The translations under genes were made by a program, and so were the position numbers. This document shows, piece after piece, positions 36,701 to 43,453 of a stretch of DNA of 64,000 nt; the stretch's first letter is position 1; every line of letters begins with the position of its first letter. Origin of the DNA: Calditrichia bacterium (GTDB taxonomy: Bacteria; Calditrichota; Calditrichia; RBG-13-44-9; J075); assembly GCA_050633245.1 (NCBI GenBank), contig JBOEGD010000024.1, positions 1 through 64,000 on the forward strand. Reading direction: 5' to 3'. The notes beneath the pieces are model-generated. The model saw only the letters and a program-made list of their open reading frames with translations. It was not told where the DNA came from and made no database searches.

Positions 36701-37504
36701 ATGCCAATCCTTCAGTTCGTTTTACGCAAACAAAAGAGAATTTTGCTCGCAATCGCCTGCTGTCTGTTTTTTGCCGGATGTGCCGGAAGTGGTATGCGAA
36801 ATTTCGGTGTAAAGCCGTTTCTGAACTCTTTGGATACCTGGCCGGAAGAATATCAGTCGAACTTTGAACAAATTCGCACTTTCTCTGGTTCAGCTCGACT
36901 GTCGATTGAATCGGAACAGTTCAATGGAAACGTTTCTTTGAAAACGAACTGGGTTCGTCCGGATAGGCTTTATCTTCAGGCTGAAGGCCCGCTTGGCCTT
37001 GATGTTGGCAAAATATTTATTGGTGAAAACCGATTTATGGTCTACAATCAGTACAATAATCATTTTACCTCGGGCAGTATTCGCGACCCTTATTTAAATC
37101 GCTTTATGCAGACCAATATTACGCTGAGCGAACTTCGCCATACCGTACTTGGCTACGTGCTCGAACCCGATTCTCCCAAGCAGCTCACCAATCGCACGCA
37201 CGGAATTTTCACAGCACGGTCGATTGAAGATGATATTGACTATCGCTATGTGGTGAACCCGGAGAGTGGTTTACTCGAAACCTGTGAGTTGAGCAGAGAA
37301 TCCCGCGTCTTTTTGCGACAGGATTTTAAGAATTATCGCAATATAGACGGCATCTATCTGCCAATGATTATTCAAATTACGCTTCCCGATCAGAAAGAGC
37401 GTATTTCTATTTTCTATAAATCCGTAGAACTTAATCGGCCGCTGGATTTGGCTAAGCACACCATTGAAATCAGCAGCAAAGTGCAACAACTCAACCTGAA
37501 TTAA
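36701..37504 (+). CDS. DUF4292-family lipoprotein (LolB-like fold inferred)
   Basis: Lipobox FAG-C; GPLG..VG..F motif; position directly after the TPR lipoprotein. Confidence 0.7.
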   Translation: MPILQFVLRKQKRILLAIACCLFFAGCAGSGMRNFGVKPFLNSLDTWPEEYQSNFEQIRTFSGSARLSIESEQFNGNVSLKTNWVRPDRLYLQAEGPLGLDVGKIFIGENRFMVYNQYNNHFTSGSIRDPYLNRFMQTNITLSELRHTVLGYVLEPDSPKQLTNRTHGIFTARSIEDDIDYRYVVNPESGLLETCELSRESRVFLRQDFKNYRNIDGIYLPMIIQITLPDQKERISIFYKSVELNRPLDLAKHTIEISSKVQQLNLN

Positions 37505-37511
37505 TCCCCCT

Positions 37512-38441
37512 ATGGAAATATCTGTTGTTATCCCTGCTTATAATGAAGCAGAGTCGCTGCCGGAGTTGATGAAGCAGCTGACCACCAGTTTACAAGCTCT
37601 GAATATGACCTACGAGATTATCGTGGTTGATGACGGTAGCAGTGATGGCTCTGATGAGCTGTTGCGATCTCTGTCTGCTGAATACCCGCACCTCAAGGCA
37701 CTCATCTTTCGTCGGAATTACGGAAAGAGTCCGGCTTTATCGGAGGGCTTTCGCGAGGCACGAGGCAAATTCGTCATCACGATGGATGGCGATTTGCAGG
37801 ATGACCCCAAGGAAATTCCCAATCTGCTCGCCAAGCTCGATGAAGGTTACGACCTGGTTTCCGGTTGGAAAAAGAAGCGGCACGATCCGCTGTCCAAACG
37901 ATTACCTTCAAAGTTATTTAACTATATTGTGTCACGCGCTGCCAAGCTGGATCTAAACGATTTTAACTGTGGGTTGAAAGCATATCGCAATGAGGTTGTG
38001 AAAGATTTGCAGGTCTATGGTGAACTGCATCGCTTTTTACCGTTCCTGGCAAATGCCAAGGGCTATCGCGTAAGCGAAATCCCGGTGCAGCATCACCCAC
38101 GGGTGCACGGTGTAAGCAAATATGGCGCGAAACGTTATCTGAATGGCGCATTCGATTTGATGACGGTTCTCTTTCTCACCCGGTTCCGCACATCACCACT
38201 GCATATCTTTGGCACTATTGGTTTAATGAGCTTTCTGACAGGATTTTTAATCGAATCCTATCTTATCTCATTATGGCTTATGGGCGAGGGGATAGGCAGA
38301 CGTCCGCTGTTTTTGTGGGGAATTTTTATGATTTTGATGGGCGTGCAGTTTGTGGGGTTTGGGCTTATTGCTGAAATGATCTCTGCCGGCCAGGCGGAGA
38401 ACGTGCGCTATACCATTCGTGAGGTTATCGGCGGAGACTGA
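37512..38441 (+). CDS. GT2 polyprenol-phosphate glycosyltransferase (ArnC/GtrB-like)
   Basis: VVIPAYNE, VDDGS.D, RNYGKS.AL, MDGDLQDDP, two C-terminal TM helices. Confidence 0.93.
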   Translation: MEISVVIPAYNEAESLPELMKQLTTSLQALNMTYEIIVVDDGSSDGSDELLRSLSAEYPHLKALIFRRNYGKSPALSEGFREARGKFVITMDGDLQDDPKEIPNLLAKLDEGYDLVSGWKKKRHDPLSKRLPSKLFNYIVSRAAKLDLNDFNCGLKAYRNEVVKDLQVYGELHRFLPFLANAKGYRVSEIPVQHHPRVHGVSKYGAKRYLNGAFDLMTVLFLTRFRTSPLHIFGTIGLMSFLTGFLIESYLISLWLMGEGIGRRPLFLWGIFMILMGVQFVGFGLIAEMISAGQAENVRYTIREVIGGD

Positions 38442-38483
38442 GCTTGGGCTGCTTCGCTGGTTTCTTCTTGAGGCTATTCTACT

Positions 38484-39518
38484 ATGAACCGCTATTCCTT
38501 CTTCTCGATTATCGTACCTTCCTATAATCGTCTCGATGAAATTACCGAGATGCTCACATCTATTCAACAAATGGATTTCCCGCCCAATCGCTTCGAATTA
38601 ATTATTGCTGATGACGGCTCAACAGACGCCACGGCGGAATACATTCGCAGCCAAACGGATAATTGCGCATTCTCTCTGAGGCTGCTGCAGCAGGAGAATC
38701 AAGGTCCGGGGGCAGCCAGAAATCTGGGGCTTGCCGCGGCTGAAGGCGATTTCTTTATCTTCATTGATTCAGACTGCACCGTTGCGCCAAACTGGCTTCG
38801 GGCGATTGACAAAGGGCTGAGCGCTGAACAGGCTGATGCCTTTGGTGGTCCCGATTCGTATCGTGAGGATTTTTCTTCATTGCTTAAGGCAATTAATTAC
38901 TCGATGACCTCATTTTTGACCACTGGTGGTATTCGCGGTGGTAAGAAGCGAATTGGCAAATTCTATCCGCGTAGTTTCAATATGGGATTATCACGGGCGG
39001 TATATGAGAAAATCGGTGGTTTCGGAGGACTTCGCCATGGACAGGATATTGAGTTTAGTCATCGCATTATAAAAAGTGGTGCTCGTGTTCGTCTAATAGA
39101 AAATGCGGTAGTCTTTCACAAACGCCGCACATCTTTACGCAAATTCTTCCGACAGGTATTTAATTGGGGCATAGCTCGTATTAATCTGTACAAGATTGAT
39201 AACGCGATGTTGGAGCTTGTGCATGCCTTACCGGCAATTGCCACATTTGGTTTCCTTGTTTTGGCTGTTGCGGCCTGTTTTTCTTCGGTAATATTAACCC
39301 TTCTTGGCGGGCTGGTGGCTTTAGCTATGCTGCTTATAGCGCTGTCCGCAATGCATTCGATGATCGTCTACAAAGACTGGAAACAACTATTTTTGCTTCC
39401 GGTGGTTATGCCGACGCAAATTCTTGGCTATGGGTTGGGTTTTGGAATTGCGTATATCTTGCGGGTTGTGTTTAATGGTGCTGTTTTTACTGGGTTTACG
39501 AAAAAATACTATCATTGA
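38484..39518 (+). CDS. GT2 glycosyltransferase with C-terminal TM helices
   Basis: SIIVPSYNR, DDGSTD, GPGAARN, FIDSDC, FYPRSFNMG, FFRQV. Confidence 0.93.
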   Translation: MNRYSFFSIIVPSYNRLDEITEMLTSIQQMDFPPNRFELIIADDGSTDATAEYIRSQTDNCAFSLRLLQQENQGPGAARNLGLAAAEGDFFIFIDSDCTVAPNWLRAIDKGLSAEQADAFGGPDSYREDFSSLLKAINYSMTSFLTTGGIRGGKKRIGKFYPRSFNMGLSRAVYEKIGGFGGLRHGQDIEFSHRIIKSGARVRLIENAVVFHKRRTSLRKFFRQVFNWGIARINLYKIDNAMLELVHALPAIATFGFLVLAVAACFSSVILTLLGGLVALAMLLIALSAMHSMIVYKDWKQLFLLPVVMPTQILGYGLGFGIAYILRVVFNGAVFTGFTKKYYH

Positions 39519-39525
39519 TTAGCAC

Positions 39526-39592
39526 AAAAAAAACAGGGGACGATGAATCGTCCCCTGCGGAGTTGGGAGGGAGGTTTTGACCTCGAAAGGTC
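39526..39592 (-). ncRNA. Candidate small regulatory RNA (~67 nt)
   Basis: Predicted transcript GACCU-UUCG-AGGUC AAAACCUCCCUCCCAACUCCG CAGGGGACGA-UUCA-UCGUCCCCUG U8, lying between its own promoter and terminator; no ORF. Confidence 0.7.
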
Positions 39593-39597
39593 AAAGG

Positions 39598-39626
39598 AAT
39601 ATAGCTTTTGTGTAGATTTTTGTCAA
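39598..39626 (-). promoter_or_regulatory. Near-consensus sigma70 promoter of the candidate sRNA
   Basis: TTGACA-N17-TATATT with an upstream A-tract (UP-like). Confidence 0.75.
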
Positions 39627-39731
39627 GTGATTTTTTTAACTTTCTCAGCGAATAGTCAGTGTGTAGGTAAATAGACATAAATTTGTAACGCAAATTGAAC
39701 ATTAGATTTGTATGAAGCCTTGAGTGGAAAT

Positions 39732-40685
39732 ATGCTTGGAGAACACTTTTTAAATTGGGGTATTGTTGCCCAGGAACAAGATGGGTATCCCATTGACTGG
39801 CAGCATATATTCGGACGTATCGCGCCGATTGGAATCGAAATCGGTTTTGGCAATGGCGAATATCTGTTGGAGTGGTCGCGTCGTCAGCCGGACTGGAATT
39901 TAATTGGCATGGAAGTGTCGCTGGAGTCGATGGAGCGCTGCCAAATGCGCATGCGCAAGCACCAGGTTCAACATGCGCGTCCACTTTACTGCGATGCCCG
40001 ATTTGGCCTAAAGGAGTTTTTCGCTCCAGAATCTATCGACCATGTCGTTATGAACTATCCCGACCCGTGGCCAAAGCGTCGTCACGATAATCGTCGATTA
40101 ATCAGCGGAAACTTCCCGGACGTATTGGCCTCTGGTTTAAAGACCGGCTGCTTTTATGAACTGGTTACCGATCAGGAGTTTTACGTGCGTGAGGCGGCAG
40201 AACGGTTTGCAGATTCCCCCTTTTTTGATACCTCACCAGTGGAACGCAATCCGGAGCGGTCAGTTAAAACGAAATACGAACGTAAATGGGATGAGATGGG
40301 ACGCGATTGCTTTCGTTTATTGGCACGCAAGATAAAGCAATCCAGTCCAAATAGATTACTGGAGAACTCGGAAATGCCGCATACTTTTTTGACTCGTGAA
40401 CCCGAATTAATGCTCGTTCGTAAACTACAGGATTTTACTCATCGCGATAAGCATGGTTTGGTTACGGTAAAGCAAATTTTTAAAAATACAGAGCAGGATG
40501 GTTATCTTCTGAAGGTGGTCGCAAAGGATATTGACTACAAGCAGAGTTTCTTCGTGTTAATAAAGCCACATGAGGATGGACGCTGGATTGTAAAGCTCGA
40601 TCAGGGGGCTCTTCCCTATCGTACACCGGCGGTTAAAATGGCGGTTTGGGAGATCGGAAACGCCCTTGTGGAGAGCCTTTCCTGA
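39732..40685 (+). CDS. trmB: tRNA (guanine-N7)-methyltransferase with C-terminal extension
   Basis: IEIGFGNG, NYPDPWPK.RH..RRL, LVTD, TKYERKW; ATG 39732 preferred. Confidence 0.92.
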   Translation: MLGEHFLNWGIVAQEQDGYPIDWQHIFGRIAPIGIEIGFGNGEYLLEWSRRQPDWNLIGMEVSLESMERCQMRMRKHQVQHARPLYCDARFGLKEFFAPESIDHVVMNYPDPWPKRRHDNRRLISGNFPDVLASGLKTGCFYELVTDQEFYVREAAERFADSPFFDTSPVERNPERSVKTKYERKWDEMGRDCFRLLARKIKQSSPNRLLENSEMPHTFLTREPELMLVRKLQDFTHRDKHGLVTVKQIFKNTEQDGYLLKVVAKDIDYKQSFFVLIKPHEDGRWIVKLDQGALPYRTPAVKMAVWEIGNALVESLS

Positions 40686-40803
40686 TTAAAAATCTCTTGC
40701 GATCTTATGGCTAAACAGTTAACATAATTATAATTGAATAAAAAAAGATAGAGAAAATGATAAGTATAAAGAAAAAGAAAAAAAAAGAACAGGTGGTATA
40801 TGA

Positions 40804-42507
40804 ATGGAGCACAAATGGGTGCTTGATGATGAGTTCGCCGAGGAGGATATCGAGCGGCTAGCGGGTGAACTGGGTGTTCCCCGAGTGTTGTCGCATATTC
40901 TCCTTCAACGAGGTGTAGACTGTTTTGACAAGGCACAAACTTATTTCCGCCCAGATCTGAACGAGCTGTACGATCCGTATCTGATGAAAGATATGGATAT
41001 TGCTGTCAAGAGACTGAATGAAGCCCTTAGTAAAGGGGAAAAAATTCTGGTCTTTGGTGACTATGATGTTGATGGCGTCTCCAGCTGTTCACTGGTATAT
41101 CTTGTCTTGGCCAAATTAGTCGGCTCTAAAGCCAGCTACTATATTCCTGACCGCATTAAAGACGGTTATGGTTTGTCTAAACGTGCTATTGAAAAAGCGC
41201 GTGATGATGGAATCTCGCTAATTATTACTGTGGACTGTGGCGTTACAGCAATTGAAGAAGTAAAACACGCTACGGAGTGCGGGGTTGATATTATCATTTC
41301 CGATCACCATGAATCTGGTGATGAACTCCCTCCAGCCGTTGCTGTTTTAGATCCCAAGCGTAAAGATTGTCCATATCCTTTTAAAGAATTGGCCGGTGTT
41401 GGCGTGGCATTTAAGTTTATGCAAGGGCTATACGACCAACTTGGCATGAATAAGTCCGAACTGGATGAATATCTGGATCTCGTGGCTATCGGCAGCAGCG
41501 CGGATATCGTGCCGCTGATTGATGAAAATCGAATTTTGGTGCGCCATGGACTGGATCGTATTAATTACAATCCACGCTTTGGTGTTAAAGCTCTTCTTGA
41601 ATCAACCGGTTTGGACAAGCGAGATATCACGGTCGGACTGATCGTTTTTGTTGTCGCCCCGCGAATTAATGCTGTGGGACGAATGGGTGATGCCGGCAGG
41701 GCTGTTAAGCTGCTGGTTGCCAGAAGCCTGCAGCAGGGACGCGTTGCAGCAAAAGAGCTGGAGCGTGAAAATAAGCTGCGCCGTACTGTAGATGAAAACA
41801 CGTTTAAAGAGGCAATCGAACTGGTAGAACAGAAACTTCAACCAGACGACGATTCCTGCATCGTGCTTTATCAAAAAGATTGGCATCCCGGTGTTATCGG
41901 AATAGTTGCCTCTCGAATTGTAGAGAGATACTATCGACCAGCAATTATGATTTCAGTGGTAAATGGTGTCGGTAAGGGATCGGCCCGAAGCATTGCTAAT
42001 TTTAATATCTATGAAGCAATTAAAAGCTGTTCGGAATATCTTGAGGCATTTGGTGGTCATAAATACGCTGCTGGATTGACTATCAAGGAAGAGAATATTC
42101 CCGCCTTTGTCGAAAAATTTAAGATCGCGGCAGCAAATACGCTTCCCGAGAAGGATCTTATTCCGACCGTTCAAGTCGACTGCGAAGTGCGTTTAAAAGA
42201 TTTTGATGAACGCCTGATGCGCCTCTTAAAACTTATGGGGCCGTTTGGACCAAAAAATCTGAGACCGGTTTTCGTTTCGCGTCAGCTAAATATTGTTGGT
42301 GATCCCTGCATCGTAGGTGGTAATCACCTAAAGCTGAATGTTGAGCAAAATGGTGTCGTTATGAATGCAATCGGTTTTAATCTCGGTAATCATCTCGAAA
42401 AAGTGAAAACGCAAAAAGCGCTTGTAGACTGCGCTTATGTGATAGAAGAAAATTTCTGGAATGGCAGAAAGAAACTACAACTCAGGCTAAAAGACGTTAA
42501 AGTATAA
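40804..42507 (+). CDS. recJ: Single-stranded-DNA-specific exonuclease
   Basis: GDYDVDG, TVDCG, SDHH, ADIVPL..ENR, PRINA.GR, GKGSARS, FGGH..AAG. Confidence 0.98.
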   Translation: MEHKWVLDDEFAEEDIERLAGELGVPRVLSHILLQRGVDCFDKAQTYFRPDLNELYDPYLMKDMDIAVKRLNEALSKGEKILVFGDYDVDGVSSCSLVYLVLAKLVGSKASYYIPDRIKDGYGLSKRAIEKARDDGISLIITVDCGVTAIEEVKHATECGVDIIISDHHESGDELPPAVAVLDPKRKDCPYPFKELAGVGVAFKFMQGLYDQLGMNKSELDEYLDLVAIGSSADIVPLIDENRILVRHGLDRINYNPRFGVKALLESTGLDKRDITVGLIVFVVAPRINAVGRMGDAGRAVKLLVARSLQQGRVAAKELERENKLRRTVDENTFKEAIELVEQKLQPDDDSCIVLYQKDWHPGVIGIVASRIVERYYRPAIMISVVNGVGKGSARSIANFNIYEAIKSCSEYLEAFGGHKYAAGLTIKEENIPAFVEKFKIAAANTLPEKDLIPTVQVDCEVRLKDFDERLMRLLKLMGPFGPKNLRPVFVSRQLNIVGDPCIVGGNHLKLNVEQNGVVMNAIGFNLGNHLEKVKTQKALVDCAYVIEENFWNGRKKLQLRLKDVKV

Positions 42508-42526: not shown

Positions 42527-43453
42527 GTGAAAGAGTTTTATCAGAACCTTCAAAAGAAACGCAGCGAAAAAGGCATTTCGCTGGAGGATATTAATCAAAA
42601 AACCCGACTTCCCATGAGCTATCTCAAAGCTCTGGAAGAAGGGCGCATGGATGATCTTCCCTTCGGATACGAACGCATTTACCTTCGTCGCTATGTAAAG
42701 GAGATTGGCCTTAATGAGGCGGAAGTTCTTCGGGACTTCGATATGCTTACCGGCAGGCTGGCCCCTACCACTGCTTCTGACGCCGTTAGCGAAGAAGCCG
42801 AACTCGAAGAGCCGGTGGCTGCGCCTTCACCCAGTTTCCCATCCAGCGTTAATGCCCAGGAGTTTGTGCATAGCTTAAATCTGGACCGCATTCATAAGCT
42901 GGTTTGGGTTGGCGGTGCTTTCTTTGCTATATTGCTGGCAGGCTATTTTATCTGGCAGCAATATATGACGCATCAAAATGATAAAGCGTTGGAAGTGAAA
43001 GAGATATCTTTGCAAGAGCTGGTCGAAAACTTTGAAGAAAAAGATACAACCGAAGTGATTCCGGATTCAACAGAAGTGCAAGCTGCTACAGCTCTTATCG
43101 CTTCGCAAGGCACTACAGGAAATGTTAATGTGTTGCTAAATGCGTTGAAGCGCACCTGGATTCGCGAGATTCGGGATGTGAAAGACACCACGGATTATAT
43201 CCTGCCCCGTGGCATCAGACGCAGTGTTAACGCACGATCATCCATTCAATTTCGGTTTGGCGTCGCAGATGGTGTCGAAGTGTGGCTGAATAAGAAAAAC
43301 CTCGGCGTTATGGGAAAGGAAGATGAAGTCTTATTGTATCTACTGCTCGATGCCGATGGAATTCAAGGTAAGCGGGTCAGAAAGGTACAACCAGGCGCTA
43401 AAGCACCTGTATCTACCGCAATTCCCGATGCACCACCAATCAGGGGGCAATAA
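42527..43453 (+). CDS. rodZ: RodZ-like HTH-TM-periplasmic domain protein
   Basis: N-terminal HTH (GISLEDI..KTRL...YLKALEEG...LP..Y.R.YLR.Y...IGL), single TM, C-terminal beta domain with G.A.GVEV.LN. Confidence 0.8.
   Translation: MKEFYQNLQKKRSEKGISLEDINQKTRLPMSYLKALEEGRMDDLPFGYERIYLRRYVKEIGLNEAEVLRDFDMLTGRLAPTTASDAVSEEAELEEPVAAPSPSFPSSVNAQEFVHSLNLDRIHKLVWVGGAFFAILLAGYFIWQQYMTHQNDKALEVKEISLQELVENFEEKDTTEVIPDSTEVQAATALIASQGTTGNVNVLLNALKRTWIREIRDVKDTTDYILPRGIRRSVNARSSIQFRFGVADGVEVWLNKKNLGVMGKEDEVLLYLLLDADGIQGKRVRKVQPGAKAPVSTAIPDAPPIRGQ

What the first reader, a model, noticed from the sequence alone, without database searches (positions are those of the whole stretch)
39526..39640. Complete hidden small-RNA gene with an exposed CCUCCCUCCC (anti-Shine-Dalgarno-like) segment
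Seen: between two + strand genes the minus strand carries TTGACA-N17-TATATT plus an A-tract. At the expected start site (39592/39591) there is a 5-bp UUCG hairpin, then a ~21-nt unpaired C-rich linker AAAACCUCCCUCCCAACUCCG, a perfect 10-bp GC-rich stem and U8. The terminator has a U-tract only in the minus direction, where no protein gene lies upstream. Known: C-rich CCUCC seeds let sRNAs such as the alphaproteobacterial 'cuckoo' RNAs and staphylococcal RNAIII/RsaE pair with ribosome-binding sites. Inference: a strongly expressed ~67-nt trans-acting RBS-blocking sRNA. I do not recognise it as a named family.
Basis: partly seen in the sequence, partly recalled or inferred. Interest (0 to 1): 0.85.

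Follow-up and report, generated by a model that had tools for sequence, protein, structure and literature searches.

The report
New small RNA gene in Calditrichota
A real, previously undescribed small-RNA gene of about 66 bases sits between two protein genes; it is conserved across one uncultured order of Calditrichota and exposes an unchanging C-rich stretch that resembles the ribosome's mRNA-docking sequence, but its targets are still unknown.

Summary
On the minus strand there is TTGACA-N17-TATATT (39626-39598), a short 5' hairpin, an unpaired C-rich linker, a 10-11 bp terminator and U8 (to 39526).

It is a real gene. It is single-copy in its own genome. A covariance model finds it in 33 of 36 other genomes of the same order of Calditrichia. 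It gives 0 true hits in 49 genomes of the rest of the phylum. Both hairpins covary. The -35 and -10 boxes keep their spacing while the spacer sequence drifts. The neighbouring genes differ between families.

The 21-nt linker AACCUCCCUCCCAACUCCGCA is identical in every copy seen. This includes 15 of 15 metagenome contigs found with a pattern that did not specify the linker.

No Rfam family reaches threshold. The best hit is RF00519 (suhB/MmgR) at 30.2 bits against a cut-off of 41.

The most likely mechanism is a trans-acting, Hfq-independent sRNA whose anti-Shine-Dalgarno-like linker pairs with ribosome-binding sites. This is inferred, not shown. There is no transcript evidence. No conserved target was found, and three target leads failed.

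Verdict: a new family of a known kind, of moderate interest.

The parts
39631..39637 (-). A-tract just upstream of the -35 box (UP-element-like)
   Evidence: An A-run in this position recurs in most homologues (upstream sequences printed).
39621..39626 (-). -35 hexamer TTGACA
   Evidence: TTGACA is present in all 34 distinct upstream sequences (for L025 read by eye, because the script picked a second TTGACA).
39598..39603 (-). -10 hexamer TATATT, 17 nt after the -35
   Evidence: The script placed the -10 in 33 of the 34 distinct upstream sequences: spacer 17 in 28 and 16 in 5. For L025 it picked a second TTGACA, and the true spacer, 17, was read by eye. The spacer sequence itself varies.
39526..39592 (-). 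Predicted sRNA transcript, about 66-67 nt. The start at 39592/39591 is inferred from the promoter geometry; the 3' end lies in the U-tract.
   Evidence: Fold. The covariance model R1 matches 39525-39596 at 87 bits, E 6e-16, and this is the only copy in the genome. Neither end has been mapped experimentally.
39577..39594 (-). 5' hairpin UUGACCU-UUCG-AGGUCAA (conserved core GACC/GGUC)
   Evidence: Three of the 4 core pairs show compensatory double changes, for example AACC/GGUU, GGCC/GGCC and GUUAGC/GCUAAC.
39556..39576 (-). Invariant single-stranded 21-mer AACCUCCCUCCCAACUCCGCA. CCUCCCUCCC occupies 39565-39574.
   Evidence: Identical in all 33 distinct aligned copies, in the copies from G024 and G026, and in 15 of 15 metagenome contigs found without specifying it. 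The mean unpaired probability of CCUCCCUCCC is 0.96.
39534..39557 (-). Terminator stem-loop CAGGGGACGA-UUCA-UCGUCCCCUG
   Evidence: Five of 10 pairs show compensatory double changes.
39526..39533 (-). U8 tract of the intrinsic terminator
   Evidence: There is no T-run on the plus-strand side of the stem.
38484..39518 (+). Neighbour: family-2 glycosyltransferase, convergent with the sRNA
   Evidence: Pfam Glycos_transf_2, E 5.6e-29.
39708..40685 (+). Neighbour: tRNA (m7G46) methyltransferase TrmB-type gene, divergent from the sRNA. The likely true start is the ATG at 39732.
   Evidence: Pfam Methyltransf_4, E 1e-35; translation.

Best explanation
This is an independently transcribed, non-coding small RNA of about 66 nt.

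Its gene has a near-consensus sigma-70 promoter with an A-tract. The RNA has a short 5' hairpin, probably for stability. It has a 21-nt permanently single-stranded C-rich linker and a strong Rho-independent terminator.

It defines a new family confined, as far as searched, to one uncultured order of class Calditrichia (phylum Calditrichota), with one copy per genome.

The most likely mode of action is trans base-pairing. The linker carries the core of the 16S anti-Shine-Dalgarno sequence (ACCUCC) followed by further CUCCC and CUCC repeats. It would anneal to G-rich ribosome-binding regions (GGAGG, GGGAGG) of several mRNAs, occlude the 30S binding site and lower their translation. This would happen without Hfq or ProQ.

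Shown: gene anatomy, conservation, covariation, single-strandedness, use of SD sites by the host, and absence of Hfq.

Inferred: transcription, abundance, base-pairing, target identity and the direction of regulation.
For: - Anatomy and fold.
- Conservation: blastn finds one copy in 33 of 40 relatives.
- Model R1 finds one copy in the own genome at 87 bits.
- R1 also finds one copy in 33 of 36 other genomes of the order at 64-91 bits. The 3 misses are 88%, 83% and 62% complete.
- The exact 19-mer occurs in 33 stretches of 185,579 species genomes. 32 of these are this gene, mostly in records titled Calditrich*.
- Covariation: 98.2% of cells are paired, 9 of 15 pairs show double changes, and 0 of 500 shuffles reach the observed score. 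Slid controls give 40-52% paired.
- Promoter: the hexamers and their spacing are kept while the spacer sequence varies.
- Independence from neighbours: in family f1 the gene is divergent from trmB-recJ. In f3 it lies between a PEGA-domain gene and a GWxTD-domain gene. In f2 the context varies.
- Non-coding: no Pfam hit for the overlapping ORFs, and the alignment indels are not multiples of three.
- Linker: invariant and unpaired.
- The host uses SD sites: GGAG begins at -14 to -9 in 798 of 3774 long ORFs, against about 8 per position in the background.
- The 16S rRNA of a same-family genome ends in GGAUCACCUCCUUU.
- The real linker has more matches of 9 nt or longer to start regions (25 of 4767 genes) than 10 mononucleotide shuffles (2-15).
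- Hfq is over cut-off in 0 of 37 genomes of the order. ProQ is not found in the own genome.
- Precedent: unpaired C-rich or anti-SD motifs in RsaE and RNAIII (PMC2790875), NfeR1 (PMC10746234) and SuhB/MmgR (PMC7143759; bioRxiv 10.64898/2025.12.09.693200) bind SD regions. I read passages of these papers.
Against: - No transcript has been seen. No RNA run holds the organism, and three polyA RNA runs laid 0 reads, which is no test.
- No dominant or conserved target was found.
- The top genome-wide complementary sites are mostly inside coding regions.
- Start-proximal matches are about as common for the reversed linker, which keeps the CCUCC-like core: 45 against 42 at 9 nt, 14 against 4 at 10 nt. 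In the predicted gene set it is 25 against 23.
- Two candidate genes keep the complementarity in 0 of 11 and 0 of 9 orthologues.
- A recurrent GGAGUUGGGA start-region motif stands at plausible starts in only 2 of 17 matches across the order.
- A 21-nt invariant stretch is longer than a base-pairing seed normally needs. That leaves room for a protein or other partner.
- There is no complementarity to the adjacent genes' start regions.
Confidence: 0.55

Rival explanations
1. Protein-binding (sequestering or RNP) RNA. The invariant C-rich single strand would be the recognition site for a protein that binds pyrimidine-rich or C-rich RNA, such as a KH-domain, cold-shock-domain or Rho-like binder. 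The RNA would titrate or guide that protein rather than pair with mRNAs.
For: - 21 nt are identical in every copy while both stems drift. That is more constraint than a 6-10 nt seed needs.
- No conserved mRNA target was found.
- The near-consensus promoter with an A-tract, and no other conserved upstream box seen by eye in the alignment, looks constitutive.
Against: - No candidate protein is linked to the locus: the neighbours differ between families.
- CsrA is present, but the RNA has no exposed GGA motif.
- Ultraconserved anti-SD motifs in multi-target sRNAs such as NfeR1 are also invariant (PMC10746234, passages).
Confidence: 0.2
2. Global anti-Shine-Dalgarno mimic. The RNA would be abundant and constitutive and would compete with the 16S 3' tail for SD sequences across the transcriptome. 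It would tune the translation of strong-SD mRNAs as a class rather than a defined regulon.
For: - The linker shares ACCUCC with the 16S tail.
- Its complementarity to start regions is explained by its SD-likeness, since the reversed linker does as well.
- The promoter is near consensus.
- No gene-specific target is conserved.
Against: - There are no expression data, so abundance is unknown.
- The invariant 3' half of the linker (AACUCCGCA) is not needed for a plain SD mimic.
- The RNA was not found in the 49 genomes searched from the rest of the phylum. I did not test whether those lineages use SD sites.
Confidence: 0.12
3. Cis-acting element. The RNA would be either an antisense regulator of a plus-strand GT2-trmB read-through transcript, or a terminated 5' leader (attenuator) of the gene downstream on the same strand.
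For: - In the window the RNA is fully antisense to the GT2-trmB intergenic region. The plus strand has no terminator there.
- In family f3 a GWxTD-domain gene starts about 130-170 nt downstream on the same strand.
Against: - The neighbours differ between families while the RNA stays the same.
- In the window and several f1 relatives the downstream gene is convergent.
- There is no complementarity to the f3 downstream start regions.
- The terminator is strong and no alternative anti-terminator fold is predicted.
Confidence: 0.06

Closest known systems
SuhB/MmgR, the alpha-r8 family (Rfam RF00519) of Alphaproteobacteria
   Same: - Similar size (77 nt against about 66 nt).
- Same order of parts: short 5' hairpin, unpaired stretch containing CCUCCCU, terminator with a long U-tract.
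- SuhB represses translation by binding the SD region of thnR (bioRxiv 10.64898/2025.12.09.693200, passages).
   Different: - The score is 30.2 bits, below the 41-bit cut-off.
- Only 1 of 10 relatives' loci gives any hit at E<=1, at 27.8 bits.
- The phylum is different.
- MmgR is described as Hfq-dependent (PMC7143759, passages), whereas no Hfq gene is over cut-off in 0 of 37 genomes here.
- The invariant motif here is longer and different.
- The resemblance is most simply convergence.
NfeR1, the alpha-r14 family
   Same: An ultraconserved anti-SD motif (CCUCCUCCC) in unpaired regions, with stems that vary. NfeR1 is Hfq-independent, silences mRNAs by occluding the RBS, and has many predicted targets (PMC10746234, passages).
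   Different: - Those RNAs have three hairpins, each carrying the motif in its unpaired region. Here there is one motif-bearing linker between two hairpins, and the motif is CCUCCCUCCC.
- Apart from RF00519 (sub-threshold), no Rfam family of this kind appears even at E<=10.
RsaE/RoxS and the staphylococcal UCCC-box sRNAs (including RNAIII)
   Same: A 5' hairpin and a terminator, with unpaired UCCC or C-rich boxes that bind SD sequences and block formation of the initiation complex. Their expression is Hfq-independent (PMC2790875, abstract and passages).
   Different: - Those are Firmicutes RNAs of more than 90 nt, with C-rich boxes in several places.
- There is no sequence or model match here.

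Membership tests
Rfam RF00519 suhB/MmgR (alpha-r8) | Covariance-model score at or above the curated gathering score (41 bits) | tested here: not met
   - The window scores 30.2 bits, E 1.9e-4 in a 401-nt search.
- No hit at gathering level in the whole window.
- Only 1 of 10 relatives' loci hits at E<=1, at 27.8 bits.
- The model also gives weak hits at E<=1 in 13 of 14 control genomes, and is over cut-off in 1.
Rfam RF00519 suhB/MmgR (alpha-r8) | Architecture: 5' hairpin, unpaired CCUCCCU, terminator | tested here: met
   Full-length alignment to model positions 1-77; fold.
Rfam RF00519 suhB/MmgR (alpha-r8) | Alphaproteobacterial distribution and Hfq dependence | tested here: not met
   The host lineage is Calditrichota by record titles. 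Hfq is over cut-off in 0 of 37 genomes of the order. Hfq dependence of the RNA itself cannot be tested here.
alpha-r14 / NfeR1-type anti-SD sRNAs | Three hairpins, each with CCUCCUCCC in an unpaired region | tested here: not met
   There are two hairpins. The single C-rich motif (CCUCCCUCCC) lies in the linker, not in a loop. No such Rfam family appears at E<=10.
Generic trans-encoded bacterial sRNA gene | Own promoter and own intrinsic terminator, conserved independently of the flanking genes | tested here: met
   promoter; terminator with covariation; different neighbours in different families.
Generic trans-encoded bacterial sRNA gene | Non-coding | tested here: met
   By my reading, there is no AUG or GUG in the predicted RNA. 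The overlapping ORFs have no Pfam hit. The alignment indels are not multiples of three.
Generic trans-encoded bacterial sRNA gene | A detectable discrete transcript | not testable with these tools
   No RNA holder is listed. Three polyA RNA runs laid 0 reads on the stretch, which the tool marks as no test.
RBS-occluding (anti-SD) sRNA, as a functional class | Conserved complementarity to the translation-initiation region of at least one target | tested here: inconclusive
   - The linker matches SD-like sites, but no better than its reversed copy.
- Orthologues of two candidates keep the pairing in 0 of 11 and 0 of 9 cases.
- The motif lead stands at plausible starts in 2 of 17 matches.
- A whole-genome comparative prediction could not be run.

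The most novel reading that the evidence does not exclude
The 21-nt invariant strand may not be an ordinary regulon seed. The RNA could be a constitutive, abundant mimic of the 16S 3' tail (or the RNA half of a dedicated RNP). It would set the translation of strong-Shine-Dalgarno mRNAs globally in a lineage that lacks Hfq and ProQ. That would be a housekeeping-type 'SD buffer' RNA, a role with no described counterpart that I know of (recalled, not searched).
Probability: 0.15. Interest if true: 0.75.

Novelty: new member of a known kind. Interest (0 to 1): 0.5.

Why it matters
Calditrichota are abundant sediment bacteria. A review table credits the phylum with a single annotated sRNA (PMC9029176, Table 1, passage seen).

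This would be a lineage-specific regulatory RNA defined purely from genomes. Its comparative support (promoter, covariation, one copy per genome) is as clean as that of curated Rfam families.

Its 21-nt invariant anti-SD-like strand, in a lineage without Hfq or ProQ, gives a simple test case for how C-rich sRNAs work outside Proteobacteria and Firmicutes.

It is also a ready-made addition to RNA-family databases, since the alignment (A1) and the model (R1) exist. The practical impact is modest until a transcript and a target are shown.

Tried and rejected
- **Rfam membership.** No family reaches its gathering score. RF00519 is sub-threshold. Rejected.
- **Paralogues.** None in the own genome.
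- **Homologues elsewhere in the phylum.** Two weak hits of 30-32 bits turned out to be a tRNA 3' end plus terminator, and a gene-end terminator. Rejected.
- **The three 'missing' genomes of the order.** Their exact 12-mer matches are not the sRNA.
- **An extended antisense partner.**
  - With up to 3 mismatches in 20 nt, 5 relatives contain only the gene itself plus one 3-mismatch site.
  - The rRNAs of a same-family genome give a longest complement of 6 nt (16S) and 7 nt (23S). That is at or below almost all of 200 shuffled linkers (range 6-14, mode 8).
  - Rejected.
- **Target prediction in the own genome**. No standout.
  - An excess of proteins of 700 aa or more among the 9-nt hits (9 of 25 against 11%, p = 0.001) was noticed after the fact. 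No conserved target came of it.
  - Signal-peptide enrichment was not significant (12 of 25 against 36%, p = 0.21).
- **GGAGUUGGGA start-region motif.** 17 matches in 9 of 37 genomes, of which 2 stand at plausible starts. Rejected.
- **Orthologue test of two candidates.** The complementarity is kept in 0 of 11 and 0 of 9 orthologues.
- **12-mer GGAGTTGGGAGG with up to 1 mismatch across the order.** By my hand sum's table, about 674 matches against about 441 for the reversed control. Uninformative.
- **Pairing with the f3 downstream gene's start region.** None.
- **Expression.** No RNA holder is listed. The polyA RNA runs X4-X6 laid 0 reads, which is no test.
- **Literature.** The searches were:
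  - 'Calditrichaeota' + 'small RNA' (2 papers);
  - 'CCUCCCUCCC' (11 papers, the 10 listed all on eukaryotes);
  - 'Calditrichota' + 'sRNA' (0 papers);
  - 'Caldithrix' + 'non-coding RNA' (3 papers, unrelated by title and abstract).

  None describes this RNA.
- **Supplementary files.** I did not ask for any, so an sRNA table held only in a supplement could have been missed.

Full report
**Observation.**
- an A-tract (39637-39631);
- TTGACA (39626-39621), a 17-nt spacer, and TATATT (39603-39598);
- six to seven bases later, a hairpin UUGACCU-UUCG-AGGUCAA (39594-39577);
- an unpaired AAAACCUCCCUCCCAACUCCG;
- a 10-11 bp G+C-rich stem (39557-39534);
- U8 (39533-39526).

The promoter scan rates the site at 11 of 12, the best in 38000-41000. 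The terminator scan calls the stem only on the minus strand. The 69-nt RNA folds into the two hairpins with a free linker: MFE -28.5 kcal/mol, z = -5.8, and 0 of 200 shuffles fold as well.

The flanking plus-strand genes are a family-2 glycosyltransferase (GT2, 38484-39518) and a TrmB-type methyltransferase (39708-40685, probably starting at the ATG at 39732). The minus-strand 162-aa ORF that overlaps the element has no Pfam hit.

**Is it real?** blastn of 221 nt against 40 relatives found one copy in 33 of them. All 33 belong to three families of one order. None of the 4 genomes from other orders of the class had it.

The alignment shows the classic signature of an RNA gene:
- invariant promoter hexamers with a drifting spacer;
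- stems that change by compensatory substitutions;
- an unchanging linker.

An exact 19-mer scan of one genome for each of 185,579 species gave 33 stretches. 32 of them are this gene. Most records are titled Calditrichia, Calditrichaceae, Calditrichota or Caldithrix sp. Five are simply titled 'bacterium' or 'uncultured bacterium', and one is titled Deltaproteobacteria. The one exception in architecture (L062, titled Ignavibacteria) has no hairpins and is a chance match.

I built a covariance model, R1, from 33 distinct copies. It gives these results:
- One copy in the own genome: 87 bits, E 6e-16.
- One copy in 33 of 36 other genomes of the order, at 64-91 bits. The three misses are 88%, 83% and 62% complete.
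- In 49 genomes of the five other families of the phylum, only two hits of 30-32 bits. On inspection these are a tRNA 3' end with a terminator, and a gene-end terminator.

**Structure and promoter.** On the 33-sequence alignment, 98.2% of cells form standard pairs, and 9 of 15 pairs show changes on both sides. None of 500 column shuffles reaches the observed covariation. Sliding the partners by 1-3 columns drops pairing to 40-52%. Three of the 4 core pairs of the 5' hairpin covary, as do 5 of 10 terminator pairs.

All 34 distinct upstream sequences carry TTGACA. The -10 box follows after 17 nt in 29 of them and 16 nt in 5. The L025 value (17) was read by eye, because the script picked a second TTGACA there.

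The linker AACCUCCCUCCCAACUCCGCA (39576-39556) is identical in every copy. To check that this is not an artefact of how I collected the copies, I scanned metagenome contigs with a pattern that specifies only the -35 box, the hairpin core and the 3' half of the terminator. All 15 of the 15 contigs found have the same 21-mer.

Across the 33 homologues, the mean probability that CCUCCCUCCC is unpaired is 0.96, with a minimum of 0.72.

A contig from a relative about 93% identical over 38900-40500 shows no difference in 39522-39593 or in 39598-39677 among the rows printed. That table was cut (69 rows not shown), so this point is tentative.

**An independent gene, not a cis element.** The gene's neighbours depend on the family:
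- In the window's family (f1) it sits divergently upstream of trmB-recJ.
- In family f3 it lies, on the same strand, between a PEGA-domain gene and a GWxTD-domain gene.
- In f2 the context varies.

TrmB is only 45-50% identical between the window's genome and the other genera compared, yet the RNA core is unchanged. The linker has no conserved complementarity to the f3 downstream start region.

**What it is not.**
- No Rfam 15 family reaches its gathering score in the window.
- A permissive search gives one notable hit: RF00519 (suhB/MmgR), full length, 30.2 bits against a cut-off of 41.
- Only 1 of 10 relatives' loci gives that family at E<=1, at 27.8 bits.
- The RF00519 model rings weakly in 13 of 14 control genomes.

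I therefore do not file it under RF00519.

There is no extended antisense partner. With up to 3 mismatches in 20 nt, five relatives contain only the gene itself plus one 3-mismatch site. The 16S and 23S rRNAs of a same-family genome offer at most 6-7 nt of complement. That is at or below almost all of 200 shuffled linkers.

**Mechanism.** The host uses Shine-Dalgarno (SD) sites. GGAG begins at -14 to -9 in 798 of 3774 long ORFs, against a background of about 8 per position. A same-family 16S rRNA ends in GGAUCACCUCCUUU. The linker shares ACCUCC with that tail and adds CUCCC and CUCC.

Hfq is over cut-off in 0 of 37 genomes of the order. ProQ is not found in the own genome. CsrA is present, but the RNA exposes no GGA motif.

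By analogy with three groups of RNAs, the best reading is an Hfq-independent, trans-acting, RBS-occluding sRNA:
- RsaE and RNAIII (PMC2790875);
- NfeR1 (PMC10746234);
- SuhB/MmgR.

I could not substantiate targets:
- The strongest genome-wide sites are mostly inside coding regions.
- Start-proximal matches are as frequent for the reversed linker.
- A GGAGUUGGGA motif at three start regions of very large envelope proteins is not conserved: 2 of 17 matches across the order stand at plausible starts.
- Two candidate genes lose the pairing in all 11 and all 9 orthologues.

The 21-nt invariance also exceeds what a seed needs. This keeps a protein-binding role or a global SD-mimic role alive.

No expression evidence could be had.

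**Comparison and novelty.** It works like the C-rich, anti-SD class of sRNAs. It resembles the alpha-r8 architecture most closely, but it fails that family's score threshold, its taxonomy and its chaperone context.

Four literature searches and Rfam found no prior description. Supplementary tables were not consulted.

I rate it a new member (a new family) of a known kind. My confidence that the gene is real is about 0.9. My confidence in RBS occlusion as its mode of action is about 0.5.

Interest is moderate (0.5). The comparative case is clean and the invariant strand is unusual, but there is neither a transcript nor a target yet.

Noticed in passing
Own genome, contig C7:331408-331496 (outside the window): The 3' end of tRNA-Ser(GCU) (…AAUCCCUCCCUCUCCGC) resembles the sRNA linker (CCCUCCCUC … UCCGC). 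The covariance model's false positive in another genome was also a tRNA 3' end plus a terminator. This is probably a compositional coincidence. An origin from a tRNA 3' half was not examined.
   Followed up: partly
Own genome, 31st contig in file order, 42609-42705 (ARAGORN output): ARAGORN predicts a tRNA-SeC(TCA), so the organism may use selenocysteine. Only 35 tRNAs were found in the assembly, and no 16S 3' end was found with a short motif search.
   Followed up: no
window 39486-39515 (+): A weak promoter-like site (TTTACT-N18-TATCAT, 9 of 12) lies inside the end of the glycosyltransferase gene. It would drive a plus-strand transcript fully antisense to the sRNA and into trmB. The match is at chance level in the scan.
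   Followed up: no
Own genome, C12:96087-96100, C13:24249-24263 and a 1160-aa gene on contig C7: Three genes of 1090 aa or more with signal peptides carry GGAGUUGGGA directly before the start codon. One encodes a CHAT-TPR protein, one a Golvesin_C/fn3 protein, and one was not annotated. The 10-mer is complementary to UCCCAACUCC of the linker. The motif is not kept at gene starts in relatives (2 of 17).
   Followed up: yes
Own genome, C7:192407-192565: A CsrA gene is present (94.5 bits). Hfq was not found over cut-off in any of 37 genomes of the order, and ProQ was not found in the own genome. This is an unusual set of RNA chaperones for a lineage with a conserved sRNA.
   Followed up: partly
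Loci L040, L044, L051, L053, L057, L059, L064, L067 (family f3): In family f3 the sRNA gene sits in a conserved block: BamB/PQQ-like beta-propeller, PEGA-domain protein, sRNA, GWxTD-domain protein. All are on one strand, and all look like envelope or secreted proteins.
   Followed up: partly
window 36701-39518: Upstream of the sRNA lies a run of envelope-type genes on the plus strand: a DUF4292 protein and two family-2 glycosyltransferases. In family f2 the same GT2-DUF4292 pair also lies downstream of the sRNA.
   Followed up: no
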